NCBI GenBank assembly: GCA_036846005.1
Contig: DAIUCV010000003.1
Location: forward strand, 1 to 46,224
Direction of reading: 5' to 3'
Source of the DNA: Patescibacteria group bacterium
Lineage (GTDB): Bacteria; Patescibacteriota; Microgenomatia; UBA8517
DNA: 46,224 bases
Shown here: positions 19,015 to 46,224 of the stretch, piece after piece
How the letters are laid out: the number at the start of each line of letters is the position of its first letter
Position numbering within the stretch: position 1 is the stretch's first letter
Notes under the pieces: model-generated
What the model saw: the letters and a program-made list of their open reading frames with translations, nothing else
Databases searched by the model: none
Told to the model about the DNA's origin: nothing
Translations under genes and position numbers: made by a program

Positions 19015-21876
19015 TTATTTCCTGAAAGAAATTCGCGAGACGATGTCTCGCGAACTAGACGCTGTATTATACTCAATTATATTTACTTTGGTCAAGGAAA
19101 AAGGATCTATTTCTTCAAAATTAATTTCTTGGGGAAATTCCAAAGTAATATTTGCTTTTAAAATATCTTGTCCCGCCTGTTTTCTCCAGTAAAATAGATA
19201 TTCTCCATTATTTTTAAAATTTAAATTGTGATTTCCACTCCACTCAAATGTTATTTGTTTAGATTGACCAGGAAGAATCTCGACAAAAACTCCTGCCTCT
19301 ACGTATCCTTCGATATTTTTAACAAAAGGATTTGTAACTTTCACATCTCCAGCTCCTTCGTCTCTTACTTCTTTAAATACACTCCCTCCAGGTGTATATA
19401 TCCTTATATATGATTTATATTTCCCTTTATAACCCAAGGCAGGATTAGCATTATTTTTAAAACTTAATGTCATTGTTCTGATAATCTTTTTTCCGTCTAT
19501 TCTATTTATTAATTTTCCATTTCTCTCAACAAAATAGTTAGCGCTATTACCCCCGACATTTGCTTCGATTACAGAAAGCCAATCCGAATAACAATTGTTT
19601 ATTTTACATAAAGGAAAGTTTATGCTTCCGTCCCATCCTAAATCAGAAATCGTTTTCTGGGCTTTGTTGTCGTGTAAAAACACTTGAACATGACGATCGT
19701 TTAATTCCTGGAAAATATTAGTATCAAACACTATTCTATTTTGCTGATTAAATGAAGGTATAATTTTTAATATTTCTCGTATTAAATCTGGATAATAATC
19801 ATTACTGATGTTTTTGACCGTAGAATCTCTGTTGGCTTGTGTTTGGATCATTTCGTAAAAATTATTTTCATCTAACGTCTGATTAAAACTTTTAAGATCC
19901 AACTTTCCGGTAATCCTTAATAAGTCTTTAATAAATTTCAAGTCAAGAGCAATTACTCCGTCAACAGACTCCCCTATTTCTTTATCTAAAAACCATTCTG
20001 CCCTTTGTGCTGAAGAGGGAAAATTAGGATCCCAATTTGAATCTCTCAAATACCAATTTTCTTGTCCTAAATAATTCTGTATTTCCGCTGGAGGCTCTAC
20101 CCAACCTTTTAGTTGCCCATCTACTGAATATACATCCATTATATTGGTATCTACCACACGACCTTTATTAAACTTTAATAGGGTAATTGCTTCAATAAAA
20201 CCTCCTGTTGGTCTTAACTGAAAATTATTTTGAAAAAGTATAAGATACGTTTTCGGAGCATCTTGGCCTAAAATATTCGGTAAGTAATCAACTAAAAGTT
20301 TTATTTTAGCAACCACATCTCTTTTCCCGGTTAAATTAATGTTTGCTGCTTGGTTTTTTAAGTACACAGAACCCAAACCGTTAAGTTCTTTATATTCTCC
20401 TTCTAAAAAAGATATTTCTCGATATAAAGAATCCAAGTCAAGAGAAAGATCTTTGGCGAAATTTACAACATCATAAGGAGAATTTCCCAGAATATTAGTC
20501 ATTAACAAACCTGATTTTTCATACACATCAGCTAGCTTAATAAGTACCTGTAAATTGTTATCTATAAATAACGCGTCTGTTTTCCCGGAGTAAAAGAATT
20601 TATTGAGAATGGGAATGAATGAATACTGTGAAAATATATAAGATGAAGCTTTTGAGGATGAAGATGAAACCACGAAAATATTTTTGGATAGATTTAAATT
20701 ACCTTTCAATAAGACTTTTTGTCCTAAATAAACACCAAATATAGATATTAATAGTAAAATTACAGGTAAAACCAATATTAGAAAAATAGTTATGATAATT
20801 TTGGTTATGAAATTTCCCAAGATCTTTTTCTTTTTACCGTTTTTCCCGATATAAATTTTATTTGTCTTTTTTAATTTATTTTCTGGTTCTTTTTCGGAAA
20901 TTGGTTTAGGTATTTTCCTTGGTTCTCTATTGGGTATCTTTATCGTTTCTGGATACGGTTGATGCGTATTTTGTTCAACAACTGTTGCTATTTGGGGTTC
21001 GTTCTTCTCACTTTCTTCTACTAAAAAATCTGGTTTGGATTTAGAGTACCAATCAATTGTTAATTTAATTGCATCTTTTAACGATGTATCACCTGTTATT
21101 GTTTCTCTTTTATTGCATTTTATTTCTGTCCATTCCTCTTTGGTTTTAAATATTAAACTACTATCAATTTCCATTAACTCTTCTATTCCACTTAAAGAAA
21201 CCTCTTTACCCAATAAAAGAACTTCTTCTCCGGGAAAACTGAATGAAAACAGATTTTTTACTATATTTCTCGCTGCATCTGCAATATAGATAGGTTTTAA
21301 TATTTCATTAGTTGTTGGTTTTGCTATCTTATCTGACAATATCTTCCCTCTTAAGTATCTGGAAATAAGAAATCTCTTGGTCAAAAGCATTCTTGGACCC
21401 ACTGGAGGGTCTATATAAACAATCTCAACGTTGGTGGGTATCTTACTAAAGAAATTTCCTACCAACTCTTCCATTTTATTAAAACCTTCTCTTAAATGAC
21501 TATTTGGAAAAACAAAAAGGCTCTTTACTCCTTTTTTATTAATGATTTCTACTGCCCTTGATAATTTTTCCTTTTCTTTGATAAATATTAAATCTTGATT
21601 CTTGCTGTCTATTTTTGCAAACAAAGCACTTTCATACAGTAAATAGCTAATATTTTCTTCCTCATCTAATTGGTTGTAACTTTTAATTGAATAATTAATG
21701 TTTTCTTTGAGGTGCGAGGAAAGAGATTTCCAATCTTGAATATTTTCTGTAAAAACATTTACACGGCAATAATTTGCCAGAAGACTTTCCAAAATACTGA
21801 TAGCTAAACCCTCTGGTTCTGAAAATAAAAATACTGTTGGTTTGTCAAACTCTTCAAGCTTAAAGGGTTCATTCAT
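19015..21876 (-). CDS. Large membrane protein with DUF4012-like extracellular domain
   Basis: A central TM is followed by LILFQNNFQLRPTGGFIEA, which resembles the DUF4012 signature as recalled from memory. The N-terminal roughly 230 aa look like a Rossmann-like fold without GxxGxxG. Confidence 0.6.
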   Translation of the reverse strand: MNEPFKLEEFDKPTVFLFSEPEGLAISILESLLANYCRVNVFTENIQDWKSLSSHLKENINYSIKSYNQLDEEENISYLLYESALFAKIDSKNQDLIFIKEKEKLSRAVEIINKKGVKSLFVFPNSHLREGFNKMEELVGNFFSKIPTNVEIVYIDPPVGPRMLLTKRFLISRYLRGKILSDKIAKPTTNEILKPIYIADAARNIVKNLFSFSFPGEEVLLLGKEVSLSGIEELMEIDSSLIFKTKEEWTEIKCNKRETITGDTSLKDAIKLTIDWYSKSKPDFLVEESEKNEPQIATVVEQNTHQPYPETIKIPNREPRKIPKPISEKEPENKLKKTNKIYIGKNGKKKKILGNFITKIIITIFLILVLPVILLLISIFGVYLGQKVLLKGNLNLSKNIFVVSSSSSKASSYIFSQYSFIPILNKFFYSGKTDALFIDNNLQVLIKLADVYEKSGLLMTNILGNSPYDVVNFAKDLSLDLDSLYREISFLEGEYKELNGLGSVYLKNQAANINLTGKRDVVAKIKLLVDYLPNILGQDAPKTYLILFQNNFQLRPTGGFIEAITLLKFNKGRVVDTNIMDVYSVDGQLKGWVEPPAEIQNYLGQENWYLRDSNWDPNFPSSAQRAEWFLDKEIGESVDGVIALDLKFIKDLLRITGKLDLKSFNQTLDENNFYEMIQTQANRDSTVKNISNDYYPDLIREILKIIPSFNQQNRIVFDTNIFQELNDRHVQVFLHDNKAQKTISDLGWDGSINFPLCKINNCYSDWLSVIEANVGGNSANYFVERNGKLINRIDGKKIIRTMTLSFKNNANPALGYKGKYKSYIRIYTPGGSVFKEVRDEGAGDVKVTNPFVKNIEGYVEAGVFVEILPGQSKQITFEWSGNHNLNFKNNGEYLFYWRKQAGQDILKANITLEFPQEINFEEIDPFSLTKVNIIEYNTASSSRDIVSRISFRK

Positions 21877-25801: not shown

Positions 25802-25810
25802 TGTGGATAA
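25802..25810 (-). promoter_or_regulatory. Perfect DnaA box (TTATCCACA) in the rpmH/dnaA divergent region
   Basis: The plus strand TGTGGATAA is the reverse complement of the consensus. Confidence 0.75.
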
Positions 25811-25916
25811 CTTTTATAACTATTGGGTAACGTTAAAACAATTAGCAAGAATAAACTTCGACCCATAAAACTTACTTGCCCTCTTAAGCTATTTGCTATA
25901 CGCAATTTTTAATAAT

Positions 25917-27281
25917 ATGGAAGGTATAGATAAAAAACAAGTTTGGTTAGATTTTCTGGAGAATATCAAAGTTTCTGTATCCCCAGCTATATTTACAACG
26001 TGGTTCTCTCAAACCCACCTAACCAAGCTGGATAAAATAGATGATAAAAATATTGTCGAAGTAGGATGCCCTTCACCTTTTGTAAAAACAACTATTGAAA
26101 GTAGATATTACGGACTTATTCAGGATTCGCTTTCAAGCATTTTAGGTAATAAATGCGATTTAATATTCGTGGTTAAGGCAAATCCTAATCCTAAAATAAA
26201 TAACGGTAGTCCTTCACCACTTTTTGAGCAGGGAAAAGAAGACACCAACCTAGATTCCCAAATCAAGAATTCCCGTTTAAGAAAAAATTTTACTTTTGCC
26301 AATTTTGCTGTATCTTCTTCTAATCAAATGGCTTGGGCTGCTGCCGATGCCGTTTCACAAAATCCCGGAACTGCTTACAACCCTCTTTTTATCTGGGGAG
26401 GTGTTGGGGTAGGGAAAACCCATTTAATGAATTCCGTGGGGTATGAAATTCTTAAAAAAGGAAGTGATAAAAAAGTGCATCTTTGTACAGGTGAGGATTT
26501 TACTAATGATATTGTTGAGGGTATTAGAAAAAAGACAACGCAAAACTTCAGAAACAAATATAGAAAATTAGATGCACTTCTAATTGATGATATTCAATTT
26601 ATTGCCGGAAAAGATGCTGTTCAGGAAGAATTTTTCCACACTTTTAATGCAATTGTGGCAGCAGGAGGACAAATTATCCTTACTTCCGACAAATCTCCTT
26701 CTGATATCTCAAAATTAGAAGAAAGATTAAGAAGTAGGTTTGAAGCAGGATTAATTGTAGATATCGCCCCTCCAGATTTTGAGCTGAGATGCGCCATTAT
26801 TCAAATTAAATCTAAGGAAAAAGAAATTGATCTTCCTATGGATCTGGTACAACTTGCTGCTGGAAACTTGGATTCTGCAAGAAAAATTGAGGGTTTTTTA
26901 GTTAGACTATTTTCGGAAACAAAGTTAAAAAAAATTGTCATATCAGAAGATTTAATAAAATCAATATTGGGTAAAAACGAGGCTGAGAAATTGGATAATA
27001 AGCGGACGCCGGATGAAATACTAAATGCTGTCTGTAAACATTTTTCGATAGGGAAAAGGTCTATTTTAGGTCAGTCAAGAATAAGATCTTTCGCACTTCC
27101 CAGACAAATTCATATGTATATTTTAAGAACATCTCTCGGTATGCCTTATGAAGAAATAGGAAGAGTAGTGGGGGATAGAGACCATACTACGGTTATGCAC
27201 GCGGTTGATAAAATTACCACTCTGGTCTCAAACAATGTGCAAATACGTGAGGATATAGAGGGGATAAAAAGTAAGGTTTGA
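25917..27281 (+). CDS. dnaA: Chromosomal replication initiator DnaA
   Basis: Has Walker A GGVGVGKTHL, the AAA+ region and a C-terminal DNA-binding helix (DHTTVMHA). The longest ORF begins at TTG 25893. The ATG at 25917 (MEGIDKKQVW) is preferred. Confidence 0.95.
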   Translation: MEGIDKKQVWLDFLENIKVSVSPAIFTTWFSQTHLTKLDKIDDKNIVEVGCPSPFVKTTIESRYYGLIQDSLSSILGNKCDLIFVVKANPNPKINNGSPSPLFEQGKEDTNLDSQIKNSRLRKNFTFANFAVSSSNQMAWAAADAVSQNPGTAYNPLFIWGGVGVGKTHLMNSVGYEILKKGSDKKVHLCTGEDFTNDIVEGIRKKTTQNFRNKYRKLDALLIDDIQFIAGKDAVQEEFFHTFNAIVAAGGQIILTSDKSPSDISKLEERLRSRFEAGLIVDIAPPDFELRCAIIQIKSKEKEIDLPMDLVQLAAGNLDSARKIEGFLVRLFSETKLKKIVISEDLIKSILGKNEAEKLDNKRTPDEILNAVCKHFSIGKRSILGQSRIRSFALPRQIHMYILRTSLGMPYEEIGRVVGDRDHTTVMHAVDKITTLVSNNVQIREDIEGIKSKV

Positions 27282-27534
27282 GGATAATTAATAATTAATA
27301 TCCACTTATCCACAATTATTTGGGAATTGTCCACAATTCTATCCACATCTTGTTTATATTTAATATTAACAATTTAATTCGAGCGTAATCGAGAGTAAAT
27401 ATCCACTTATCAACACTCACTACTACTAGTACTACTATTTAAATAAGTAAAAACGTAAAAGAGAAAAAACTCAATAAATTAATTTCTTAATTCCTCTTGC
27501 TCTTTTTGTTATTCACTTTTATACTCTGACTACC
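27282..27534. other. Predicted chromosomal replication origin (oriC) in the dnaA-dnaN spacer
   Basis: DnaA boxes are TTATCCACA at 27306-27314, TTGTCCACA at 27327-27335, CTATCCACA at 27339-27347 and TTATCAACA at 27407-27415. A composite AATATCCACTTATC(C/A)ACA occurs twice, at 27297-27314 and 27398-27415. An AT-rich tract follows from about 27420 to 27530. Confidence 0.8.
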
Positions 27535-28635
27535 GTGAAGCTTCAAGTTTTACAAGAAGAACTGTCTAAAGCATTAAGTTTAGCTAATAGATTTGCATCT
27601 GCAAAAGCACAACTTCCAGTTCTTGGTAATATTTTATTTTCTGCTAAAAAAGGTAAATTACTTATTTCTTCCACAAATCTTGAGATTTCAATCAATATTG
27701 CTATCGGGGCAAAAGTAGAAACTGAAGGTGATATCACTATACCGGCTAAAGTAATAACGGATATTATTACTAATTTAAATCCTGAACAAATCAATCTGGT
27801 TTCTAAGGAAGAGAATCTAAATATCACAAATAGTGAATTTGAATCAACTGTTTCGGGTATGAATGCATTGGATTTTCCTGCTATTCCCAAAAGAATGGAA
27901 AGGGTAGATTTATCCATCCCCAAAGATGAATTAGCCAAAGCGTTATCTTTAGTTTTGTTTGCAGTCTCATCCGATGAAACAAGACCGATTTTGACAGGGG
28001 TTTTATTTATTTGTAAAAAAGGAGAACTAACTTTGGTTGCAACCGACGGATATCGATTATCCCACGTTGTACTTAAAAATAGCTCTATAACTAAAACTTT
28101 TAAATTTATATTACCTAAAGCCGTGTTGGGAGAATTGACAAGACTTCCTTCTGATGGTGATGTTGAATTTTTCTTTGACGAAACTAATAATCAGGCTGTA
28201 TTTAAATCGGAAAATATTATTTTATCTTCAAGGGTATTAGAAGGGGAATTTCCGGAATATCAAAAGATTATTCCCAAAGAATTCATCTTGAAAATAGCAG
28301 CGGATAAAGAAGATCTGATACAGGCGGTAAAACTGGCGTCTGTATTTGCCAGAGATTCTGCGAATATAGTTAAAATGAATATAAAAAGTGGAAAACTGGA
28401 ATTTAATACAGAAAGCCAATTATCAGGAAAACAGAAAACAAGAATAGAAGCAAAAATAGATGGAGAGGATTTAGAAATTGCATTTAACTACCGCTTTTTG
28501 GAGGAAATTTTGCAGGTTATAGAAGGTGAAGATGTATCGATGGAATTTTCAGGTTCAAGTTCGCCAGCAGTATTTACCTACCCTAAGGATACGAATTTTC
28601 TTCATATCATAATGCCAGTTAAACTTCAGGACTAA
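27535..28635 (+). CDS. dnaN: DNA polymerase III beta sliding clamp
   Basis: GTG start. The 366-aa protein has beta-clamp three-domain length and pattern. It occupies the canonical position after dnaA. Confidence 0.93.
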   Translation: MKLQVLQEELSKALSLANRFASAKAQLPVLGNILFSAKKGKLLISSTNLEISINIAIGAKVETEGDITIPAKVITDIITNLNPEQINLVSKEENLNITNSEFESTVSGMNALDFPAIPKRMERVDLSIPKDELAKALSLVLFAVSSDETRPILTGVLFICKKGELTLVATDGYRLSHVVLKNSSITKTFKFILPKAVLGELTRLPSDGDVEFFFDETNNQAVFKSENIILSSRVLEGEFPEYQKIIPKEFILKIAADKEDLIQAVKLASVFARDSANIVKMNIKSGKLEFNTESQLSGKQKTRIEAKIDGEDLEIAFNYRFLEEILQVIEGEDVSMEFSGSSSPAVFTYPKDTNFLHIIMPVKLQD

Positions 28636-28636
28636 C

Positions 28637-29851
28637 TTAAAAAGACAATAAAATTTTGTTGAGAAAACCCCTTTTATCAAGTAGATATAATGTATTGTTT
28701 GATATTCCAATTACTTCTTGAACAGATATATTGGTGGAAGGATTAGTGAAGTTGATAGGATACTTGGTAAAGTTTGTAGAATTTAAGCCATAAAACTGTA
28801 TTTTGTTTTGTAGTGTCTTAATAATTAGTAAATTTTCATCACTTATCCAGGCAATGTGTTCAGAAAATTCCGAGGATACTGATTTCTGAGCAAGACTCTC
28901 TAAATTAATAAGAGTAAGAGAATTAGATTTTTGGACAGCTAGAAAGCTATTACCCGGAGAAAGAGCGTAATTATTACCCACAATAGATAATACTGTTTTA
29001 TTTTGAGTAATATTAAATAAAGTTATTTTACTTTCATCAAGAGCATCAACCTTATCAAATAAAAGTAAGAGATTGTCGGTGACAACCCCTATTTTAGATG
29101 CTTTAATTCTGGTAATTTGTCTGGGTTGTAAATTTGTGGTATCTGTTACAAAAAGAGTAGACGACCTTGTTTTATAATCGAATTTTCCAATAAGATACAT
29201 ACTTTTGTTATCCGTACTCAGATGCGCATACATAATAGGAGTAATGCTTGAGATATCGATTTTTTGTGTTAGTTTATTTGACTGGGTATCGAAAACAAGT
29301 ATTTCGTTAATATTCTTGCGATCTACAAAAGTGATTAAAGGTTCAGAATATGAATAGAATGAAAGATTGCCTTCGTAAAGTGTGTTTACCTTATCGTTAA
29401 CTATAGAAACCAGTCGGGAGTTATTAACATCATAGGCAATTAAAACACCGTTGGTGTACAAGTTGACATCAGATATAAATGTTTGGGATATTGTCTCAGT
29501 TTTTTTAATTTCAATTTGGGTAATATCTCCCTTTATATTTTCTAGAGTTATATCAATATTAGTATTACTTTTAAGGTCAACCTCCTTATTAACGTTTATG
29601 TAGTTTGGTTTTGAAATTACAATTTCATGAGTACCTTTAGGTAGTTTTTTAGAGAAGTTGTTTATAGAAGAATACTTGTTGTCGACAAGAATTTCAGCTC
29701 CAGAAGGTTGAACATTAATATTTAATAAATATTGTTTCTGAATTAAATTTCTAATAATAAAAAGAATTAATAAGAAGAGAATAACCAAAATACCAGCAGA
29801 CAAAACCCTATTGGTCTTTATTTTTAGATATAACGTTTTTATCAAATACAT
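28637..29851 (-). CDS. Bitopic membrane protein with PEGA domain and a repetitive beta-rich ectodomain (last gene of the T4SS-like operon)
   Basis: An N-terminal TM is followed by the PEGA pattern INVQPSGAEILVDN...LPKGTHEIVISKPNY. The gene overlaps the upstream gene by 10 nt. Confidence 0.7.
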   Translation of the reverse strand: MYLIKTLYLKIKTNRVLSAGILVILFLLILFIIRNLIQKQYLLNINVQPSGAEILVDNKYSSINNFSKKLPKGTHEIVISKPNYINVNKEVDLKSNTNIDITLENIKGDITQIEIKKTETISQTFISDVNLYTNGVLIAYDVNNSRLVSIVNDKVNTLYEGNLSFYSYSEPLITFVDRKNINEILVFDTQSNKLTQKIDISSITPIMYAHLSTDNKSMYLIGKFDYKTRSSTLFVTDTTNLQPRQITRIKASKIGVVTDNLLLLFDKVDALDESKITLFNITQNKTVLSIVGNNYALSPGNSFLAVQKSNSLTLINLESLAQKSVSSEFSEHIAWISDENLLIIKTLQNKIQFYGLNSTNFTKYPINFTNPSTNISVQEVIGISNNTLYLLDKRGFLNKILLSF

Positions 29852-32424
29852 AATTGGCTTGGGTCAGTACAATTTCCTAAATTAAATTTGTCTTCAAAAT
29901 CCGCCTGTGGACAGATATCACCTGCACCATCGAAATCAAAACCTCCCGTGCTTATGCCAAAGTGTACATGTTCACCGTGTGCGTTTCCAGTTGTGTTAGT
30001 TGTCGCTATTACCTGACCACTGCTTACTTGTTGACCCAGGGTTACAAATATTTGACAGTTGTGTGAGTATAAATATCTTCTTCCGTCATTTCCATTTAAA
30101 ATAATATAGTTTCCCCCGGCAGCAGAGAAATCATCTTTCCAAATGTTGACGTAAGATATTGTTCCACTGGTATAGGCAACCAAAGGTTGATGTTCTGACT
30201 GGGGGAAGATATCAACATTATTCTTGTGATTCCAGTGATAACAAGCATAATTTGTATTCACACCAGGAGCTACGGGGAAAGCGTATTGATTATCGCTGGA
30301 AAAAATGACGCCGGTTACATCGGGCGGTGTACCTCCTGTGACATTGTCTATACAATCGCCTTCTTCTCCGGCGAATTCAGATCGGGGAACAACATATCCG
30401 CTTGTATTAATGATGTAGATGGTAATTATTAAAAACAATATTACGCAAAAACCTATTATTAGAGGTTTGATAATAACATCTAGAGTAAGCTCGGTTAATG
30501 ATCTAAAAAGGTTGGAGCGGCGAAACAATTTAGTTCTTCTGAAAAAACGATACAGACTACGAGCAGCAAGAAGACTGATGGGGATAGCCAAAACAGGGGA
30601 GTTTTCTTTTACCCAAGTTTTAATTTTATTCCAGTTTTTCCTAATGAATTCAACAATTGCTGAAAGAACCAGGACTATTAACGATACCAGCCAGGTAGGT
30701 ATTGCCGCGAGAACCGCAAACACTCCTCCTGCAGCTTTACCACCTGCTGTAAGAGCTGCAGTTGTACCTGCAGCTACTGGTTTTGAGGATATTACTTTAT
30801 ACAACAAAGAACCGATTTTATCGATAATGGGTCCTTTTATTGGTTTCTTGCCAATCCATACGACAAATTTTGAAGCCCCTTCGGAAAATACATTTCCTAA
30901 GGTAAACTTTCCTAAACCTGCTTGGATACCACCGAGATTAATAGATGCCGCCTCGATCATTCCCACTTCGCTTGTGTAGACAACCTTTGCCACCCAGAAA
31001 CTTTTGGGAAACGCAGAACTAAATAATGGTCTCATTAATCCGACACCCTTCCAGGCTATTCCAGGTAATGAACCAGGAGTAACCCCCGCAACTGCCGGCA
31101 GATATAAATTTGAAGCACCCGATGTCAGAAGAGGAATGTTTATTGCTGTCCAGCGCGTTATTAAACTCGTTTGGGATAATCCGACAACTGCTCCAGCTGC
31201 TGCGGTATAGGGGAGAATGCCTCCCGTTATAGATTTAAGTTTAGTAATTGGTTTATACCAAGAGTATTCTTTAACAATTGCGGAGTAACCACGCCTGCTT
31301 AACGAATTTATATATTCCAGATCTCCTCTTTGGATTGCTTTGTAAACCTGATTTCTAATATTGGCGGTTGTTTTCCAATAATCGATCATGGATTGTACGT
31401 CTGCTTGGTAGTTGGTTTGATCAGTGGGTTCTTCTGATATCTCGTGGTCTCTTGTTTTTTGGGTATTGTAGAAGTAAGTGGAGAGATTAGGTCCGATAAC
31501 CGGTGAAAGTAAGTTTTCGGATGTTACATCGTCCAATTCTTCTTCAAGAGCTATTCCTTGTGCGGCTTCTGAAATCTGTTTTCTGACTTCTTCATCAGGG
31601 ATAATTTTTACCAAATTAGGATCATTGGGATTAGCCAGGGAAGATAAAATTTCCAAGATATTAACTTGAGCCTGACCTACTGAATTATTATCTATTTTTA
31701 AAAGTTTGTCGGTAAAATCGATTGCTACAATTCTGGCAACATAATCAAGTTGTTCCGGAGAAAGGTTGTTTTTAACTTCTTTTGGGGCATACTTTAGTAT
31801 TTCTTGCACTCTTCTTTCGACAAACGAGTTGGGATCACTTCGAGCTTCATTAAGATAGTTTTCCAGTCTCACACGATCCTCTTCAGAGACTGTATTTGAT
31901 TCTGGGGGTTCTGGGGAGTTTAAGTAAACAATCTTGGGAATTACTGCAGGAGGTGGTGTTTTAACAACCTCTTTGATAACAGGCTTTTCGGTTGCAACCG
32001 GTTGAACCTCCTTATTGAGCAATTCTTTAGGTTTAGGAATCTTTTTGTTTTTACCCTTAAAATCAAGAATATTTTCCGTAACGTTATATAACACATCTTC
32101 TTTCTCATCGGTTGCTAAATTCTTAACACGTTCCATTTCTTTAGCAGCATCAAGAATTTCCTGCGCAGGCATATCACTTTCAACACCCTTATCGATAAGT
32201 TCAATCCAATAATCCAACACCATTAAGCTATCGGAGATTTCATTGGTGTCTGTTATGAGAAAAACGTATTTTAAGAAAAGCTGTTTGCTATACCCGTCGT
32301 AAGAATTGCTGAAGGGTTTAGTGATAGCCACATCAGGGGGATAAAAATAGGCAGGGTAAAAAATCCTAATCCCTTCACGAATCCACTCTATCCTTTTTCT
32401 TGAAAATACTATTGAATCATTCAT
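29842..32424 (-). CDS. 860-aa membrane protein with C-terminal M23-like peptidase domain (cell-wall hydrolase of the T4SS-like cluster)
   Basis: The C-terminus has NAHGEHVHFGIS (HxH) and LYSHNCQIFVTLGQQVSSGQVIA. The Gly/Ala-rich hydrophobic middle contains TM segments. The N-terminal roughly 380 aa match nothing recognised. The gene overlaps virB4 by 8 nt. Confidence 0.7.
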   Translation of the reverse strand: MNDSIVFSRKRIEWIREGIRIFYPAYFYPPDVAITKPFSNSYDGYSKQLFLKYVFLITDTNEISDSLMVLDYWIELIDKGVESDMPAQEILDAAKEMERVKNLATDEKEDVLYNVTENILDFKGKNKKIPKPKELLNKEVQPVATEKPVIKEVVKTPPPAVIPKIVYLNSPEPPESNTVSEEDRVRLENYLNEARSDPNSFVERRVQEILKYAPKEVKNNLSPEQLDYVARIVAIDFTDKLLKIDNNSVGQAQVNILEILSSLANPNDPNLVKIIPDEEVRKQISEAAQGIALEEELDDVTSENLLSPVIGPNLSTYFYNTQKTRDHEISEEPTDQTNYQADVQSMIDYWKTTANIRNQVYKAIQRGDLEYINSLSRRGYSAIVKEYSWYKPITKLKSITGGILPYTAAAGAVVGLSQTSLITRWTAINIPLLTSGASNLYLPAVAGVTPGSLPGIAWKGVGLMRPLFSSAFPKSFWVAKVVYTSEVGMIEAASINLGGIQAGLGKFTLGNVFSEGASKFVVWIGKKPIKGPIIDKIGSLLYKVISSKPVAAGTTAALTAGGKAAGGVFAVLAAIPTWLVSLIVLVLSAIVEFIRKNWNKIKTWVKENSPVLAIPISLLAARSLYRFFRRTKLFRRSNLFRSLTELTLDVIIKPLIIGFCVILFLIITIYIINTSGYVVPRSEFAGEEGDCIDNVTGGTPPDVTGVIFSSDNQYAFPVAPGVNTNYACYHWNHKNNVDIFPQSEHQPLVAYTSGTISYVNIWKDDFSAAGGNYIILNGNDGRRYLYSHNCQIFVTLGQQVSSGQVIATTNTTGNAHGEHVHFGISTGGFDFDGAGDICPQADFEDKFNLGNCTDPSQLCI

Positions 32425-34378
32425 TCTTATTTACTGTTTGAACAGAAGGATTAATATTTGTATCTGATTTATTCGCTTGATGGTAATATCCCAATTTTTC
32501 CTGAGGTTTGGTGGTTATTATCTTATGTTCTTCTTGTGAAGCCACAACTCTAATCGGGGCATGATGGGGACCAGCGAAAAATATACCCTCTCCAATATTT
32601 GCAGCCAAAAGAAGCTGTTTTTCTCCCTGGGAAAGATAGAAAACTTCTGCTATTCTATCGATTGCTGCAGGGGATTGTTTTAATAGAAGTCTTAGAGAGC
32701 TATTAGTTACTATTGCTTTACCGATATCCTGATTTAGAAAATCTTCAACGTCTTGGGTAATGGTGGTTAAACCCAGGAAGTATTTTCTGGCCCTTTTTAC
32801 AACACTCCACAGAAATTGGGCTGAGTCGGGATATCTCATCATATGCCAGGCTTCATCAACAATCAAAAGTCTTCTTTTTAAATCTCTTTGCACCCTAGTC
32901 CAAATAAAATCTAATACCATGAACATCGCGATGGGTCTTAAAGCTTCCTGCATGTCTTTTACGCTAAAAACTGTAAAAGGATTATTGATATTAATGTTTG
33001 TTTGTCTATCAAAGATTCCCACAAAGCTTCCTCTAACAAATTTTTCAATCCTTGCCGCCAAATCCATGGCATCAGGGGTCTCCATTCCTACCAGGGTTTT
33101 ATATAAATCTTCCATCAAAGGAGCCTCCCTTTTTTGAGTTGTAGGATCTTGGGTAATACCCTTACCGCGATAGGTGGCAATTAAGGCTCTATCCAGAAGA
33201 GCTTCCTGTATAGGATTTAACTGTCCCATAATGACTTTGAAAAAGGAATGCAAAGTAAGAATTTTTAATCCTAACTGATTTTCTCCTTCGGTATAAATTT
33301 GGGAAAGATCAAAAGGGTTAATTTTAGAAGAAGATCCGAAGGAAAAAGATATAAATTCTCCTCCCACGGCCTCAGCTATTGTTTTATATTCAGATTCCGG
33401 GTCAATTACTATAACTTCAGTTCCGAGCATTAGGCTGCGTATAGATTCGAGTTTAACAAAATAAGATTTTCCTGCTCCTGAGGTAGCGAAAATCGTCATA
33501 TTGGCGTTTTCAAGAGAGAATCTGTCGAAAATAATAAACGATTCGTTTTGTGAATTAATTCCGTATAAAACTCCTTTGTCACTGGAAAGTTCAGCAGAAG
33601 TCAGGGGAAAAGTAGTCGAAAGAGAAGTTGTATCCATGTTTCTGGTTATCGCAAGCTTGTCCAATCCGAAAGGAACTGTTGATAGAAAGCCGTTTTCGCA
33701 ATCAAGAGCGGCGTGTTTGGCAACAATCAAAAGTGAACCCAGGGTAGATTCCACCTGTCTGGTTATGTGATTTAATTCCTCAAGACTTGCGGCAGGTATG
33801 GTTATATAAAAAGAGAATTGGTAAAACCTTTCAGAACCTTTGACAAGTTGTTCTTGTAAAGACCTTGCATCCTCGAGTTTTGCTTGGGTTGAGGGGTTTA
33901 CTATTTTTCCTCTTTCTAAATCAGTGGCAATTTCTGCTTCCATCTCAGCAATTTTTCTTCGTAAATCATCCAAGACAGTTTTCCCCTCTACAGGGTAAAT
34001 ATAAAAGGAAGTATCAAGTGAACCGTCAAAGTTGATTATTGGTTCAAGCCATCCGGGAGCAACAAATCTGGGATATCCCGCAATGAATAGTGTGCGGAAA
34101 TAGGTGTTGTTTATTTTTATATAGTCAAAATCAATCTCTATTGACTCGGGTGCTAATAAATCGAGAAGATTTAGTTTTCTTTGGTAAAGTTCAATTGCAG
34201 GGTCGATTATCTTAGGCTTTTTGGGTAATCCGTTGAGATTATTTGAGGCTTGGGGTTGTTTTGCTTTTTCGTCTACCTCTTCAGGTTTTGGTGATTCGTA
34301 TAAATGACCCATATTACCACTGGGTGTTTGTGTTATTTGTTGGGGTTGAGTGGTTTTTTTAGTTTTAAATAGATTCAT
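32417..34378 (-). CDS. virB4: VirB4/TrbE/PrgJ-family T4SS ATPase (C-terminal 653-aa part)
   Basis: Has Walker A ATSGAGKSY and Walker B RRLLIVDEAW. TTITQDVEDF and the N-terminal YFRTLFIAGYPRFVAPGWL pattern are typical of VirB4. Confidence 0.9.
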   Translation of the reverse strand: MNLFKTKKTTQPQQITQTPSGNMGHLYESPKPEEVDEKAKQPQASNNLNGLPKKPKIIDPAIELYQRKLNLLDLLAPESIEIDFDYIKINNTYFRTLFIAGYPRFVAPGWLEPIINFDGSLDTSFYIYPVEGKTVLDDLRRKIAEMEAEIATDLERGKIVNPSTQAKLEDARSLQEQLVKGSERFYQFSFYITIPAASLEELNHITRQVESTLGSLLIVAKHAALDCENGFLSTVPFGLDKLAITRNMDTTSLSTTFPLTSAELSSDKGVLYGINSQNESFIIFDRFSLENANMTIFATSGAGKSYFVKLESIRSLMLGTEVIVIDPESEYKTIAEAVGGEFISFSFGSSSKINPFDLSQIYTEGENQLGLKILTLHSFFKVIMGQLNPIQEALLDRALIATYRGKGITQDPTTQKREAPLMEDLYKTLVGMETPDAMDLAARIEKFVRGSFVGIFDRQTNININNPFTVFSVKDMQEALRPIAMFMVLDFIWTRVQRDLKRRLLIVDEAWHMMRYPDSAQFLWSVVKRARKYFLGLTTITQDVEDFLNQDIGKAIVTNSSLRLLLKQSPAAIDRIAEVFYLSQGEKQLLLAANIGEGIFFAGPHHAPIRVVASQEEHKIITTKPQEKLGYYHQANKSDTNINPSVQTVNKNE

Positions 34379-34390
34379 ATATTTAATTTT

Positions 34391-35086
34391 TTAACTTTTT
34401 AGCAAATCCTGCTCGGACATTTTCAACGTAGGAGGTTCGGAATTATAGATACTAAAGAAAAGGTCTATTAGTTGGATGGTTGCTAATTGTTTTAACTTAA
34501 GCCCAAGTCTTCCCGCCTGTCTTATCAGATGATCTCTTTTGGGATAAAGTGCTATTTTAGCCTTCTTAATTACATATGATTTTGGGAAAGGTAAAGGACC
34601 CGCCTTTCTGGTTATAGAGGCAGCCGATTTGGCAACTCCAAGTTCCAAAGCACTAAAAGGAATAATTATGTAGAAACTTTTACCCAGAACATTTTTCTTT
34701 TTAATAGTATCCAGGATAAATTGTCTGTAACCCTGCATTAAATAAGAAAGCTTTGTGTTCTTGAGAGATTTTTGGGCGTTATCCAAATATTTAAGATAAT
34801 CAGAGATATCCTTTCTTTGAGAACGAATAAATATCTGTATTTGGAAAGATAATGAATTAATAAGAGCGGCATATGCTGCAATAACAGCTTGCTGTTCTTT
34901 TTCAGACAAAAGACCAAAATTAAGAGAAGTAGTTTCCATTACGATTGCGGCACCCCCATCTTTATAGAGAATAATATCTTCAGTAATATCCGCTATAGGG
35001 AGATGATTTTGGGAGGTGGAGATAATGGGTTTGTCAGGAATACTTAACAAGGGAATCTTGAAATTTTTTAAACCTGGTGTATTCAT
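34391..35086 (-). CDS. 231-aa soluble protein resembling the extreme N-terminal region of monoderm VirB4 proteins
   Basis: The pattern IADITEDIILYKDGGAAIVMETTSLNFGLLSEKEQQAVIAAYAALINSLSFQIQIFI matches the N-terminus of Gram-positive VirB4 (recalled from memory). The ORF is in the same frame as virB4, separated by one TAA plus four codons. Confidence 0.55.
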   Translation of the reverse strand: MNTPGLKNFKIPLLSIPDKPIISTSQNHLPIADITEDIILYKDGGAAIVMETTSLNFGLLSEKEQQAVIAAYAALINSLSFQIQIFIRSQRKDISDYLKYLDNAQKSLKNTKLSYLMQGYRQFILDTIKKKNVLGKSFYIIIPFSALELGVAKSAASITRKAGPLPFPKSYVIKKAKIALYPKRDHLIRQAGRLGLKLKQLATIQLIDLFFSIYNSEPPTLKMSEQDLLKS

Positions 35087-35091
35087 GTTTT

Positions 35092-36174
35092 TTAGAATTG
35101 AACCGTGCTTGGTTGGTTGGGATTATTGGGTAATACGGATTGAACATTAACAATAGCCTTTGCCTTGATGGCTATAGGTGGGATTATTTCTCCGGTGGTT
35201 TCAAATGTAACAGAATCAAAAATTAAACCATCTTTTTCCGTAATTATTTCGTAGCTTCCATTTTGTAAAGCAGTAACTATCATGAAGTGTCCCACTTTAT
35301 TGCTTCTTAATGCCCTTACAGGACGTCCAGCTGCATCTTTTATCTCAAGGATGGCACCCTCCACAATTTTCCCTTGGGGATCCATTACTTGACCGACAAC
35401 AGTGTTGGGAATAGAAGGGGGATTGGGAGGTGCTGCGTCTAATGAAAATTGAGCCTGCTGACTACCTATTCCTGTCTCGCTTAAGATTGGATTTATCTTG
35501 GTAGTTATATCTGTTTCCTTAACAGGTTCTTCCTGAACGGGTTTTTCTTCGATGACAATTTTTGGCCTAAATCCTTTAGAAGCAATTGTGAAAGATTTGT
35601 TAACAGGAGTTTCGACCGGTTTTATTATTTTGGGTGTGACTTTAGAAACATCTTCTTTTTTTGGTTCTTCCACAACAGTTGGCCGAATGGGTGTTACAGA
35701 GGAAGCAAAGATGTCTTTTACTTTATTTAAAAAATTTTTTTCGTAACCCTCTAAATTTGCAAGAAAACCCATACCCTGCGTAGGTAACTCTCTAAGGTAG
35801 GATTCCAGCACAACTTCACCATGTGGAGCTATTATACTTTCGTCTTTAGGCATAACTGTTTCTTCTTGGAAGAAATTGAGAGTTTCTCCTTCTTTTTTCC
35901 AGAAATAAGCGGTTGGAGAATAGATAGATTTGAAGAAAGCTAAAATCCATTTTGAAAGAGGTCTTTCCTCAAAGGGTAGAAAAGCAAGTGCGGCTCCCAA
36001 AGCGGCAAAAAAGATCATTAATGGCCATTTGACAATAGGATAGATATTGGTGGAATAAATCAAAAGAGAAATTAAAGCACCACCTGCAACTTGAAAAAAT
36101 TGCTTTAAGGTCATGTCTCCGACCAACCTAAACTGGTAAGATGAGATTTGTTGCGGTATGGGATGTTGTTCCAT
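35092..36174 (-). CDS. PrgI/VirB3-like membrane protein fused to a CarboxypepD_reg-like beta-sandwich domain
   Basis: The N-terminus is QISSYQFRLVGDMTLKQFFQVAGG followed by two TM segments, as in PrgI-family proteins. The C-terminus VVGQVMDPQGKIVEGAILEIKD...GSYEIITEKDG is CarboxypepD_reg-like. Confidence 0.65.
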   Translation of the reverse strand: MEQHPIPQQISSYQFRLVGDMTLKQFFQVAGGALISLLIYSTNIYPIVKWPLMIFFAALGAALAFLPFEERPLSKWILAFFKSIYSPTAYFWKKEGETLNFFQEETVMPKDESIIAPHGEVVLESYLRELPTQGMGFLANLEGYEKNFLNKVKDIFASSVTPIRPTVVEEPKKEDVSKVTPKIIKPVETPVNKSFTIASKGFRPKIVIEEKPVQEEPVKETDITTKINPILSETGIGSQQAQFSLDAAPPNPPSIPNTVVGQVMDPQGKIVEGAILEIKDAAGRPVRALRSNKVGHFMIVTALQNGSYEIITEKDGLIFDSVTFETTGEIIPPIAIKAKAIVNVQSVLPNNPNQPSTVQF

Positions 36175-36293
36175 AGTAAATAGCTGTAGCTCCTACATAA
36201 TTTAGCTTAACCCGTGAAGTATCTATTTCAACCCCAACCTATTTTCACAGATATTATTAGAAAATTTAATTACAAGATGTTAAAATATCAGGT

Positions 36294-45574: not shown

Positions 45575-46162
45575 TTATAAACCTAAACCCGGAATTTTTA
45601 GAATATCAACTCCGATAATTCTTAATATAAATACCGAAAATATTAAAAGTACCACACCCATTATAGCGCTTGTCAAAAGCTCCTGCCCAGCTTTTAATCT
45701 ATCCGGATTACCAGATGAGGTCATGATAATAAATCCGGCGTAAATCATTAAAAGAAACGCAATTCCTCCAGCTATACCTATACCCCAGGTGAGAATAAAA
45801 CCAAAAAATTCATTCTGGCTACCCAAAGGAATACAACCGAATGCCGTATCGATTTTAAAGTCATCCCCTGCACAGAGTGGTTCCGCTTGGTCGGTCGAAG
45901 GTACAGTGGGAATTGGAGTAGCAGTAACAGTGCCGGTGGGAGTTGCTGAAGGTGTTGGTGTTACACAGACACAGCTATTGGAACCGCCATCGCATTGAAA
46001 AGTACAACGGGCATAACTGTCACCTGTGCAGTGATTGTTACCACTATCCACAATACAATCTTCCAAAAAATGTGAACAGGTACAACTTTGAGCAAAACTT
46101 GTTTTGGGGAACATAACAAAAAACAAAAAGATAAGAGAAAAGAACAATAGTATTTTCTTCAT
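45575..46162 (-). CDS. Pilin paralog P1: signal peptide, 10-Cys head domain, Thr/Pro linker and VirB2-like hairpin
   Basis: The signal peptide is MKKILLFFSLIFLFFVMFPKTSFA|Q. The head is CTCSHFLEDC...CTGDSYARCTFQCDGGSNSCVC, followed by a TPTPSATPTGTVTATPIPTVPS linker. The hairpin core is IYAGFIIMTSSGNPDRLKAGQELLTSAIMGVVLLI. A TTG at 46192 is an alternative start. Confidence 0.7.
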   Translation of the reverse strand: MKKILLFFSLIFLFFVMFPKTSFAQSCTCSHFLEDCIVDSGNNHCTGDSYARCTFQCDGGSNSCVCVTPTPSATPTGTVTATPIPTVPSTDQAEPLCAGDDFKIDTAFGCIPLGSQNEFFGFILTWGIGIAGGIAFLLMIYAGFIIMTSSGNPDRLKAGQELLTSAIMGVVLLIFSVFILRIIGVDILKIPGLGL

Positions 46163-46224
46163 TAATTTTAGTTTAACATAACAGGAAACCAAGATTAAGA
46201 TTCTAGTTGCTATAATAGAACAAC

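What the first reader, a model, noticed from the sequence alone, without database searches (positions are those of the whole stretch)
28637..46192. Chromosomal, oriC-adjacent, monoderm-type T4SS-like apparatus with no visible DNA-processing module
Seventeen genes form a compact cluster. All but one lie on the minus strand, and many are joined by 1-11 nt gaps or overlaps. They encode the mating-pair-formation core of a Gram-positive-style type IV secretion system:
- a VirB4 ATPase
- a VirB6/TrbL-like channel protein
- a PrgI/VirB3-like protein
- two peptidoglycan hydrolases (SLT-like and M23-like)
- bitopic scaffold candidates
- eight VirB2-like pilins

Nothing in the window looks like a relaxase, a VirD4/FtsK-type coupling ATPase, VirB11, an integrase, att repeats or a flanking tRNA. 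The left boundary is the core gene dnaN, with a 1-nt gap, so nothing is missing on that side.

This fits a domesticated T4SS used for something other than conjugation. Options include a surface filament for host-cell contact, effector or hydrolase delivery, or DNA uptake by analogy with the relaxase-free ComB system of Helicobacter. The combination of a pilin multigene array with a monoderm-type core is not part of the textbook Gram-positive T4SS description.
Basis: partly seen in the sequence, partly recalled or inferred. Interest (0 to 1): 0.88.

Follow-up and report, generated by a model that had tools for sequence, protein, structure and literature searches.

The report
Patescibacterial origin-adjacent type IV secretion cluster
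This is a real, complete copy of the relaxase-free, pilin-rich type IV secretion system that ultrasmall Patescibacteria (CPR) carry next to their replication origin. That system was described in 2023-2025, so the find is sound but not new.

Summary
The 17-gene cluster exists as described. Searches confirm these parts:
- a VirB4 ATPase of the monoderm CD1110/MPF-FATA type
- a separate TrsD-like protein matching the N-terminal part of VirB4 profiles
- a PrgI/VirB3-like protein
- an M23 peptidase
- an SLT_3 lysozyme-like domain
- eight PF18895 VirB2-like pilins
- a polytopic protein that resembles VirB6 only by predicted fold

No relaxase, coupling protein, VirB11, integrase or tRNA lies within about 20 genes on either side, including 10 kb beyond the window. 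Both flanks are housekeeping genes, and a DnaA-box cluster lies 1.1 kb from the cluster. The window comes from a Woesebacteria-like (Microgenomatia) genome bin.

Wang et al. 2023 showed the Saccharibacteria counterpart is essential for epibiotic growth. Quiñonero-Coronel et al. 2025 described the phylum-wide system, including pilin arrays, missing relaxase and dnaA/dnaN proximity.

I add three incremental points:
- The eight pilins are positionally orthologous across 44 species.
- A large soluble protein encoded on the opposite strand occupies a conserved slot but is hypervariable.
- The VirB6-like family, which these authors found scarce in Microgenomatia, occurs in at least 541 species genomes.

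The parts
27279..27415 (.). Cluster of DnaA-box-like sites in the dnaA-dnaN spacer. This is the likely oriC and gives the context for 'origin-adjacent'.
   Evidence: Five matches to TTATCCACA with at most 1 mismatch lie within 137 nt, one of them perfect. Another perfect box lies at 25802. The cumulative GC-skew minimum is at about 24-26 kb. dnaA is at 25893-27281 and dnaN at 27535-28635.
28637..29851 (-). g1: 404-aa bitopic protein with one N-terminal TM segment, a PEGA domain and a probable beta-rich ectodomain. It is the last gene of the VirB4 operon. Its membership in the machine is inferred from gene overlap only.
   Evidence: Pfam PEGA E 5e-10. TM segment at residues 11-42. It overlaps g2 by 10 nt.
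29842..32424 (-). g2: 860-aa membrane protein with a C-terminal M23 peptidoglycan endopeptidase domain.
   Evidence: Peptidase_M23 56 bits at residues 738-828. Two TM regions. It sits in the same position as SEML1_0007, the essential gene with a C-terminal peptidase next to virB4 in Southlakia.
32417..34378 (-). g3: VirB4-type ATPase (653 aa) of the monoderm CD1110/MPF-FATA type. It lacks the N-terminal ~180 residues of full-length VirB4 profiles.
   Evidence: NF045971 378 bits (cutoff 325), profile positions 180-735 of 752. Pfam P-loop_TraG, AAA_10 and DUF87. PDB 4AG5 (Thermoanaerobacter VirB4) E 2.5e-47 against TrwK E 3e-4. Walker A ATSGAGKS and Walker B LLIVDE.
34391..35086 (-). g4: TrsD-like protein (231 aa). 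It corresponds to the N-terminal domain of VirB4, encoded as a separate gene.
   Evidence: It matches the N-terminal part of VirB4 profiles (NF045971 positions 2-130; NF045975 positions 104-233) and TrsD NF041427, all below their cutoffs. Precomputed PF26593 TraC-like hit, weak. It lies directly upstream of virB4 in 62 of 62 related loci that reach that far.
35092..36174 (-). g5: PrgI/VirB3-like membrane protein (360 aa) with a Pro-rich linker and a C-terminal CarboxypepD_reg-like beta-sandwich.
   Evidence: PrgI 28.5 bits (gathering score 27) at residues 5-87. CarboxypepD_reg 25.6 bits, below its cutoff. Conserved in 64 related loci.
36294..38603 (+). g6: 769-aa soluble orphan protein on the opposite strand. 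It is divergent from g5 and convergent with g7. The slot is conserved but the sequence is hypervariable.
   Evidence: No Pfam, NCBIfam or PDB hit, alone or as a 34-sequence profile. No TM segment. Only 90 representatives in 1.84 billion proteins. All 64 related loci have a 526-1083-aa opposite-strand ORF in this slot. These ORFs fall into five BLAST clusters with no profile-profile similarity. They share an acidic N-terminal motif.
38607..40208 (-). g7: polytopic membrane protein (533 aa), the VirB6-like channel candidate.
   Evidence: About 7-8 TM segments. No sequence-family hit. AF2 model pLDDT 76.9. The top Foldseek PDB hits are TrwI/VirB6 of R388: 8rt9_F prob 0.97, TM-score 0.49 on the target, E 0.32. 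Seven of the top 24 hits are VirB6 chains. More than 1364 homologues exist; the few that carry a source name are Woesebacteria or Patescibacteria. Homologues occur in 541 species genomes and are always linked to PrgI, TrsD and VirB4 where the flank allows.
40257..40748 (-). g8: 163-aa bitopic protein. It is a positional candidate for a VirB8-like scaffold, but this is unproven.
   Evidence: One N-terminal TM segment. No family hit. Only 7 homologues found. AF2 model pLDDT 56, too poor for a fold search. It overlaps g9 by 4 nt.
40745..42940 (-). g9: 731-aa exported Cys-rich protein. It has a conserved N-terminal ~570-aa domain of unknown function and a C-terminal SLT_3 lysozyme-like domain.
   Evidence: SLT_3 22.9 bits (below 27) at residues 616-712. 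An ES motif (read from the translation) and a GLFQ motif. Homologous C-termini from related loci score 32-45 bits in 4 of 6 cases. The N-terminal part is conserved in 73 of 80 loci and the C-terminal domain in only about 11.
42979..43302 (-). p10: VirB2-like pilin (107 aa).
   Evidence: PF18895 41.9 bits. Two-helix hairpin. Eighth position of the array in 44 of 44 eight-pilin loci.
43383..43760 (-). p11: VirB2-like pilin (125 aa).
   Evidence: PF18895 40.8 bits. Positionally orthologous in 44 of 44 loci; 63% mean identity to its orthologues.
43816..44217 (-). p12: VirB2-like pilin. The longest ORF is 133 aa from a TTG start; public gene calls give 119 aa.
   Evidence: PF18895 27.3 bits. Gene call of 119 aa. 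Orthologous position in 44 of 44 loci.
44192..44575 (-). p13: VirB2-like pilin (127 aa).
   Evidence: PF18895 20.4 bits, below the cutoff. It aligns with its paralogues. Orthologous position in 41 of 44 loci.
44581..44928 (-). p14: VirB2-like pilin (115 aa).
   Evidence: PF18895 19.8 bits, below the cutoff. Alignment. Orthologous position in 44 of 44 loci.
44932..45252 (-). p15: VirB2-like pilin (106 aa).
   Evidence: PF18895 26.5 bits against a cutoff of 26.6. Orthologous position in 40 of 44 loci.
45259..45573 (-). p16: VirB2-like pilin (104 aa).
   Evidence: PF18895 40.0 bits. Orthologous position in 42 of 44 loci.
45575..46192 (-). p17: first gene of the array. It is a pilin-like protein (195-205 aa) with a signal-like N-terminus, a Cys-rich module and a Thr/Pro-rich linker ahead of the pilin hairpin.
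   Evidence: PF18895 21.3 bits at residues 134-192. Sequence. Always in first position, 44 of 44 loci.

Best explanation
**What it is.** This is the chromosomal, Patescibacteria-type type IV secretion system of a Woesebacteria-like (Microgenomatia) genome. It belongs to the lineage derived from monoderm MPF-FATA conjugation machines.

**Anatomy (shown).**
- The energising ATPase is VirB4, split into a TrsD-like N-domain protein (g4) and the motor (g3).
- A PrgI/VirB3-like protein (g5) and a VirB6-like polytopic protein (g7) are the membrane components, by analogy with the VirB3/VirB6 translocon (inferred).
- Two wall hydrolases are present: the M23 endopeptidase g2 and the SLT_3 lysozyme-like g9.
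- Eight distinct VirB2-like hairpin proteins (p10-p17) are each individually conserved.
- The genes form two minus-strand operons, p17 to g7 and g5 to g1. They are separated by one divergently transcribed gene for a large soluble, fast-evolving protein (g6).
- No relaxase or coupling ATPase lies nearby. The cluster sits 1.1 kb from the likely oriC, between housekeeping genes.

**How it most likely works (inferred).**
- It is not a conjugation apparatus.
- The eight pilin-like subunits co-assemble into a heteromeric extracellular stalk or pilus.
- The hydrolases open the wall for that structure.
- The machine serves the host-dependent lifestyle by contacting a host cell and moving macromolecules across the envelope.
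- I lean towards export of proteins that lack Sec signals, with g6-slot proteins as candidate substrates or adaptors.
- Functional evidence exists only for the Saccharibacteria counterpart, which is essential for epibiotic growth.
For: - **Component identities:**
- **Chromosomal, non-mobile context:** there is no tRNA. The flanks are housekeeping genes: dnaA, dnaN, rnpA and yidC on one side; SpoIID, smpB and dnaG on the other.
- **Origin proximity:** DnaA boxes and the GC-skew minimum place oriC beside the cluster.
- **Lineage:** every related locus that carries a lineage name is Woesebacteria, Microgenomates or Patescibacteria; the generic or proteobacterial titles are discussed under 'noticed in passing'. 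The gene order g9-g7-[slot]-g5-g4-g3 is conserved in 62-64 species-level loci, and dnaN is seen downstream in 16.
- **Pilins:** eight pilins in 44 loci, with 97% positional orthology. Orthologues are 44-63% identical; the other seven window pilins are 25-36% identical to p10.
- **Literature:** the Southlakia cluster SEML1_0006-0019 has a similar gene order, and nearly all its genes, including all six pilins, are essential in Tn-seq (PMC10633639). A phylum-wide survey describes a VirB4 clade nested in MPF-FATA, TrsD, PrgI, VirB6, pilin arrays of 2-11 genes, rare relaxases and dnaA/dnaN proximity in Microgenomatia (PMC12102498). A review covers the same ground (PMC12857230).
Against: - No experiment exists for this lineage. 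Secretion direction, substrate and the existence of a pilus are all inferred.
- The VirB6 assignment rests on a weak Foldseek match (E 0.32) plus synteny.
- A VirB8-like part could not be shown.
- I examined only about 66 kb of one 135-kb contig. A coupling protein or relaxase elsewhere in the genome is not excluded. The survey reports VirD4-like homologues far from virB4 in most Patescibacteria genomes.
- I did not place this VirB4 in a phylogeny.
Confidence: 0.85

Rival explanations
1. The machine is the same, but it works inwards. It imports DNA, nucleotides or other macromolecules from the host, in the manner of ComB or Ced. This is the function favoured in the concluding remarks of the 2025 survey.
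For: - Patescibacteria lack nucleotide, amino-acid and lipid biosynthesis, and the authors propose import.
- No relaxase or T4CP is present here.
- A ComFC-like gene (double zinc ribbon plus PRTase) lies about 6 kb beyond the pilin array (L005 3286-3963).
- g3 has a faint CedB match of 47.6 bits.
Against: - The CedB score is far below its cutoff of 700 and far below the CD1110 score of 378.
- In Southlakia, comEC deletion abolishes transformation but not growth, while the T4SS is essential. Any import would therefore be independent of ComEC.
- The conserved slot for a signal-less soluble protein fits an export substrate better, although this is inference.
Confidence: 0.25
2. It is the mating-pair-formation module of an ordinary integrative conjugative element. 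The relaxase, T4CP and integrase lie outside the region examined.
For: The VirB4 is of the CD1110 conjugative type. T4CP and relaxase genes can be distant from virB4 in some elements.
Against: - Both flanks are core housekeeping genes, including oriC and dnaA-dnaN.
- There is no tRNA and no integrase. No att-type repeat search was run.
- GC content inside the cluster (0.35-0.40) is within the range of the rest of the window (0.28-0.41), so it does not mark the cluster as foreign.
- The same locus, in the same order and next to dnaN, recurs across dozens of species-level genomes at 30-50% protein identity. That pattern indicates vertical inheritance.
- Relaxases were found in only 103 of 3,035 Patescibacteria genomes.
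Confidence: 0.03
3. The eight pilin genes are a recently amplified, interchangeable repertoire used for antigenic or host-range variation, as proposed for Bartonella and Anaplasma VirB2 paralogues and suggested for Patescibacteria.
For: Paralogues are very divergent, 25-36% identical to p10. The survey offers this reading.
Against: - Each paralogue keeps its ordinal position in 44 species-level genomes. Each is more similar to its orthologues (44-63%) than to its neighbours.
- The array size is fixed at eight in 44 of the 68 loci with any pilin hit; most of the smaller counts are where the contig flank is cut short.
- All six Southlakia pilins are individually essential.
- Together these indicate non-redundant subunits.
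Confidence: 0.1

Closest known systems
T4SS of Candidatus Southlakia epibionticum ML1, SEML1_0006-0019 (Wang et al. 2023, Cell; PMC10633639)
   Same: - Both are chromosomal clusters a few genes from dnaA.
- The order is shared: wall hydrolases, VirB4, a TrsD-like protein, PrgI, a large unannotated protein, VirB6-like, then an array of PF18895 pilins.
- Neither cluster contains a relaxase or T4CP.
   Different: - Southlakia belongs to a different class (Saccharimonadia).
- It has six pilins on the opposite strand from the core. Here there are eight on the same strand as the core.
- Its large middle protein (SEML1_0011) is on the same strand as the core. Here it is on the opposite strand.
- Its VirB6-like protein is 1088 aa against 533 aa here.
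- It has an NTF2-like (VirB8-fold) protein. Here g8 could not be assigned.
- I did not compare the sequences directly.
Patescibacteria-clade T4SS as surveyed by Quiñonero-Coronel et al. 2025 (PMC12102498)
   Same: All headline features match:
- an MPF-FATA-related VirB4
- TrsD, PrgI/VirB3 and VirB2-like pilin arrays (most abundant in Microgenomatia and Saccharimonadia)
- no relaxase
- proximity to dnaA, dnaN, rnpA and rpmH in Microgenomatia
   Different: - The survey found VirB6 homologues scarce in Microgenomatia. Here a divergent family with a VirB6-like fold is universal in the related loci.
- The survey reads the pilin arrays as possible host-range versatility. Here they are positionally orthologous.
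- I could not confirm that this assembly was in their dataset.
Monoderm conjugative MPF-FATA systems (CTn2/CD1110 of C. difficile, pCF10 Prg, pGO1 Trs)
   Same: - VirB4 of the CD1110 family scores above the NCBIfam cutoff.
- PrgI and TrsD homologues are present.
- There are no VirB7/9/10 outer-membrane core proteins.
- Peptidoglycan hydrolases are present.
   Different: - There is no relaxase, T4CP or surface adhesin such as PrgB.
- There is an added multigene array of VirB2-like pilins.
- The cluster is chromosomal and vertically inherited, not on a mobile element.
Relaxase-free ComB DNA-uptake T4SS of Helicobacter pylori
   Same: It is a T4SS without a relaxase or coupling protein, used for something other than conjugation.
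   Different: ComB is a diderm VirB2-4/6-10 system that works with ComEC. No VirB7, VirB9 or VirB10 is present here. Its VirB4 is of a different class. This is an analogy only.

Membership tests
Patescibacteria-type T4SS (MPF-FATA-derived) | A VirB4 ATPase related to monoderm MPF-FATA VirB4 proteins | tested here: met
   NF045971 conju_CD1110 378 bits, above the cutoff of 325. The best PDB relative is Thermoanaerobacter VirB4 4AG5 (E 2.5e-47), against R388 TrwK at E 3e-4. Walker A and B motifs are intact.
Patescibacteria-type T4SS (MPF-FATA-derived) | The VirB4 falls inside the monophyletic Patescibacteria clade of the VirB4 tree | not tested
   I built no reference phylogeny. The indirect evidence is that syntenic homologues occur in 62 Woesebacteria/Microgenomates loci.
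Patescibacteria-type T4SS (MPF-FATA-derived) | A TrsD-like gene next to virB4 | tested here: met
   g4 matches TrsD NF041427 (25.6 bits, below its cutoff) and the N-terminal part of VirB4 profiles. It also has a weak PF26593 hit. It lies immediately upstream of virB4 here and in 62 of 62 loci. Sequence support is weak; positional support is strong.
Patescibacteria-type T4SS (MPF-FATA-derived) | A PrgI/VirB3-like membrane protein | tested here: met
   PF12666 28.5 bits against a gathering score of 27. Conserved in 64 loci.
Patescibacteria-type T4SS (MPF-FATA-derived) | A VirB6-like polytopic protein | tested here: inconclusive
   There is no Pfam, NCBIfam or PDB sequence hit, even as a profile. 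The AF2 model (pLDDT 76.9) has TrwI/VirB6 as its top Foldseek hits, but at E 0.32 and TM-score 0.3-0.49. Linkage to the T4SS genes is strict.
Patescibacteria-type T4SS (MPF-FATA-derived) | An array of VirB2-like pilins (PF18895) near virB4 | tested here: met
   Eight tandem genes all hit PF18895, four of them above the gathering score. All share a two-helix hairpin with a conserved SGGD-x(5)-A loop.
Patescibacteria-type T4SS (MPF-FATA-derived) | No relaxase or coupling protein within about 20 CDS of virB4 | tested here: met
   I ran Pfam scans of the listed window ORFs of about 100 aa or more, except four covered by public-contig domain calls (YidD, YidC, an R3H/KH protein and RnpA) and one 101-aa ORF left unscanned, and of the 10 kb beyond the window. 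None shows a relaxase, T4CP, VirB11 or integrase domain.
Patescibacteria-type T4SS (MPF-FATA-derived) | Chromosomal location close to dnaA/dnaN in a Patescibacteria genome | tested here: met
   dnaN ends 1 nt from the cluster. DnaA boxes lie at 27279-27415, and rpmH, rnpA, yidD and yidC are upstream. The relatives are Woesebacteria and Patescibacteria genome bins.
Patescibacteria-type T4SS (MPF-FATA-derived) | Required for host-dependent (epibiotic) growth | not testable with these tools
   This is shown only for Southlakia epibionticum, by Tn-seq.
Conjugative ICE / conjugative MPF-FATA element | A relaxase (MOB) and a VirD4/TcpA-type coupling ATPase associated with the MPF genes | tested here: not met
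   Neither is present in the window or in the 10 kb beyond it. The rest of the genome was not examined.
Conjugative ICE / conjugative MPF-FATA element | An integrase, att direct repeats or a flanking tRNA, and a patchy, mobile distribution | tested here: not met
   There is no tRNA and no integrase domain. No att-type repeat search was run. The same locus, in the same order, occurs in dozens of species, 16 of them with dnaN seen downstream. This indicates vertical inheritance.
VirB8-like scaffold (NTF2-like fold) for g8 | A bitopic protein with an NTF2-like periplasmic domain | tested here: inconclusive
   The topology fits. The AF2 model has pLDDT 56, so I did not attempt a fold comparison.

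The most novel reading that the evidence does not exclude
In Microgenomatia the T4SS may build a heteromeric filament or stalk from eight non-interchangeable VirB2-like subunits. The Cys-rich p17 would be a specialised first or tip subunit.

The hypervariable, signal-less 500-1100-aa protein always encoded on the opposite strand between the VirB6-like and PrgI genes would be the system's dedicated translocated substrate or host-specificity factor. It would be recognised through a short conserved acidic N-terminal tag (MPDGMSPE-like). That would be the first candidate effector class for a patescibacterial T4SS.
Probability: 0.15. Interest if true: 0.6.

Novelty: already known. Interest (0 to 1): 0.3.

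Why it matters
The system itself matters. It is among the most conserved envelope machines of the huge, mostly uncultivated Patescibacteria radiation. It is essential for epibiotic growth in the one species tested, and its substrate and direction of transport are unknown.

This window adds no new kind of system. It is a clean, complete Microgenomatia example that sharpens three open points:
- The pilin array looks like a fixed set of eight distinct subunits, not a variable repertoire.
- A divergent VirB6-like family fills the gap that HMM surveys reported for this class.
- A fast-evolving soluble protein in a conserved slot is a testable candidate for the missing substrate or adaptor.

Tried and rejected
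- **ICE hypothesis.** Rejected on context.
- **Sequence-level VirB6/TrbL assignment for g7.** Pfam, NCBIfam and PDB searches gave nothing, with the single sequence or with a 42-sequence profile. Only the fold search pointed to VirB6.
- **g8 as VirB8-like.** Only 7 close homologues were found. The AF2 model had pLDDT 56, so I ran no fold search.
- **g6 identity.** The word-indexed search found 2 proteins. The exhaustive HMMER search found 90 representatives. The Pfam scan of 34 family members gave only one below-threshold DUF7748 hit in a single member, and the PDB search with the 34-sequence profile found nothing credible. There is no Walker motif, so it is not a cryptic T4CP. I could not test a relaxase fold.
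- **Homology among the slot-protein clusters.** hhalign probabilities were at most 0.2%.
- **Promoter scan.** No more promoter-like sites than in shuffled sequence (52 against 57 ± 7); terminator-like sites were somewhat more frequent (23 against 14.6 ± 3.7) but none was followed up. The operon structure is therefore inferred from gene orientation only.
- **Assembly accession in the 2025 paper's supplements.** No hit in the files held.

Full report
**Observation**

The window is a low-GC (about 35%) stretch that is identical, in reverse orientation, to part of contig MGFQ01000019.1 of assembly GCA_001791965.1.

ORF listing confirms 17 genes between 28637 and 46192. Sixteen are on the minus strand, with overlaps of 4-10 nt or gaps of a few nucleotides at most junctions. 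dnaN (27535-28635, plus strand) ends 1 nt from the stop codon of the first cluster gene.

Upstream lie dnaA, rpmH, rnpA, yidD and yidC. Five DnaA-box-like sites cluster in the dnaA-dnaN spacer at 27279-27415, and the cumulative GC skew reaches its minimum at about 24-26 kb. The label 'oriC-adjacent' is therefore justified.

**Components**

- **g3 (VirB4).** It passes the NCBIfam cutoff for the CD1110 family of monoderm conjugative VirB4 ATPases (378 bits against 325). Its closest solved relative is a Firmicute VirB4 (4AG5, E 2.5e-47). Walker A and B motifs are intact.
- **g4 (TrsD-like).** The g3 match starts at profile position 180. The missing N-terminal part is matched, weakly, by the preceding 231-aa gene g4, which also hits TrsD and TraC-like models. 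This gives the TrsD-plus-VirB4 arrangement.
- **g5 (PrgI).** It is PrgI-like just above Pfam's threshold and has an extracellular beta-sandwich tail.
- **g2 (M23).** It ends in an M23 peptidase domain.
- **g9 (SLT_3).** Its C-terminal SLT_3 match is below threshold (22.9 bits). It carries ES and GLFQ motifs, and four of six homologous C-termini from related genomes pass the threshold.
- **Pilins.** All eight small proteins hit PF18895. They share a two-helix hairpin with a conserved loop.
- **g7 (VirB6-like).** The 'VirB6/TrbL' call is the weakest. No sequence model matches, even with a 42-sequence profile. An AlphaFold model (pLDDT 76.9) has R388 TrwI/VirB6 chains as its best PDB matches, at prob 0.97 but E 0.32 and TM-score 0.49 on the target.
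- **g8.** It could not be assigned because the model was too poor (pLDDT 56).

**What is absent**

I ran Pfam scans on almost all of the other substantial window ORFs, and on the seven genes in the 10 kb beyond position 46224; four small housekeeping genes are covered by the domain calls stored with the public contig. Those seven genes include SpoIID, a bPH-domain protein, DUF5657, an unannotated 626-aa protein, a ComFC-like protein and a NUDIX protein; SmpB and DnaG were identified from the domain calls stored with the public contig. None shows a relaxase, coupling ATPase, VirB11 or integrase domain. No tRNA is present. This covers roughly 20 CDS on each side of virB4. I did not examine the rest of the genome.

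**Relatives**

The g7 family has more than 1364 members; the few that carry a source name are Woesebacteria or Patescibacteria. It occurs in 541 species-representative genomes.

In the 80 best loci the order g9-(g8)-g7-[opposite-strand ORF]-g5-g4-g3 is conserved. Every locus with enough flank has PrgI, TrsD and VirB4 (62-64 loci). dnaN is visible downstream in 16. This is vertical inheritance of a chromosomal locus, not a mobile element.

**Comparison with what is known**

- Wang et al. 2023 (PMC10633639) found SEML1_0006-0019 in Southlakia epibionticum. It is a T4SS most like Gram-positive conjugative systems, with essential pilins and no recognisable relaxase or coupling protein. It is essential for epibiotic growth. 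Its gene order parallels this window.
- Quiñonero-Coronel et al. 2025 (PMC12102498) surveyed 3,035 genomes. They reported:
  - a VirB4 clade nested in MPF-FATA;
  - widespread TrsD, PrgI and VirB6;
  - VirB2-like arrays of 2-11 genes, especially in Microgenomatia and Saccharimonadia;
  - relaxases in only 103 genomes;
  - proximity to dnaA, dnaN, rnpA and rpmH, with co-option for a non-conjugative role.
- A 2025 T4SS review covers the same ground (PMC12857230).

1. **The pilins are a fixed set.** In 44 related loci the pilin array has exactly eight genes. Each window pilin's best match sits at the same ordinal position in 97% of cases. Orthologues are 44-63% identical; the other seven window pilins are 25-36% identical to p10. 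This favours eight non-redundant subunits over a variable repertoire. It also fits the individual essentiality of the six Southlakia pilins.
2. **A conserved slot holds a hypervariable protein.**
   - Between the VirB6-like and PrgI genes, all 64 loci carry a 526-1083-aa ORF on the opposite strand that lacks convincing TM segments.
   - These proteins fall into five BLAST clusters with no profile-profile similarity and no known domains.
   - Their N-termini share an acidic motif far more often than background ORFs: 31 of 64 against 44 of 648. I defined this pattern post hoc.
   - The window's member, g6, has only 90 representatives among 1.84 billion proteins.
3. **g9 has a conserved core and a variable end.** The conserved part is its N-terminal ~570 residues. 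The SLT_3 end is kept in only about 11 of 73 loci, largely the same loci that keep a g8 homologue.

**Mechanism**

- *Shown:* the parts list, the two-operon layout split by a divergent gene, chromosomal inheritance, and the local absence of DNA-processing genes.
- *Inferred:* VirB4 with TrsD powers assembly at a VirB3/VirB6-like membrane platform. The hydrolases open the wall. The eight pilin-like proteins form an extracellular heteromeric structure. The machine mediates host contact and macromolecule exchange.

I lean towards export and give import about 0.25.

**Verdict**

The finding is real, well read and correctly interpreted, but it is an instance of an already described system. Interest is low to moderate.

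Noticed in passing
window 42979-46192; loci L009-L087: The eight pilin genes are positionally orthologous across 44 species-level genomes, with 97% of best hits at the same ordinal position. Orthologues are 44-63% identical; the other seven window pilins are 25-36% identical to p10. The Cys-rich, Thr/Pro-rich p17 is always first.
   Followed up: yes
window 36294-38603 (+); same slot in 64 loci: The slot between the VirB6-like and PrgI genes always holds a large soluble protein on the opposite strand. These proteins fall into five mutually unrecognisable sequence clusters, yet their N-termini share an acidic MPDG/MSE...PE-like motif.
   Followed up: partly
window 40745-42940 and 40257-40748: The conserved part of g9 is its N-terminal ~570 aa, of unknown function. 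The C-terminal SLT_3 domain is kept in only about 11 of 73 related loci, mostly the same loci that keep a g8 homologue. One orthologue instead shows a GH5 cellulase-like hit (L053).
   Followed up: partly
window 28637-46192 relative to oriC at about 27.3 kb: Sixteen of the 17 cluster genes are on the strand transcribed towards the origin, so they are head-on to replication if oriC is in the dnaA-dnaN spacer. The 16 related loci that show dnaN have the same convergent arrangement.
   Followed up: no
L005 3286-3963 (about 6 kb beyond the window end): A ComFC-like gene (double zinc ribbon plus phosphoribosyltransferase) and a SpoIID-domain protein lie just beyond the pilin array. The 2025 survey noted comF near T4SS loci in another class (ABY1).
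   Followed up: no
window 12711-13778 (+): A single ORF combines a Sua5/YciO/YrdC (TsaC-like) domain with a TsaE domain. It sits directly upstream of tsaD, so it looks like a fused t6A-pathway protein.
   Followed up: no
window 137-808, 10941-12695, 19015-21876: Further cell-wall genes lie in the same window: a second M23 peptidase, a VanW plus PG_binding_4 protein, and a 953-aa DUF4012 protein.
   Followed up: no
L006 871-1191 versus L007 871-1191: In one metagenome contig the p15 pilin gene is called as two ORFs of 50 and 51 aa. In another contig it is intact at 106 aa. This could be a population variant or an assembly error.
   Followed up: no
loci L010, L011, L013, L015 and others: Many genome bins that carry this Patescibacteria-type locus are titled 'uncultured Gammaproteobacteria bacterium' in their records. 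These titles are probably placeholder or wrong taxonomy labels.
   Followed up: no
window 43816-44217: The start of p12 is ambiguous. The longest ORF (TTG, 133 aa) overlaps p13 by 26 nt, while public gene calls use a 119-aa version. Likewise p17 is called at 195 aa against a 205-aa longest ORF.
   Followed up: no
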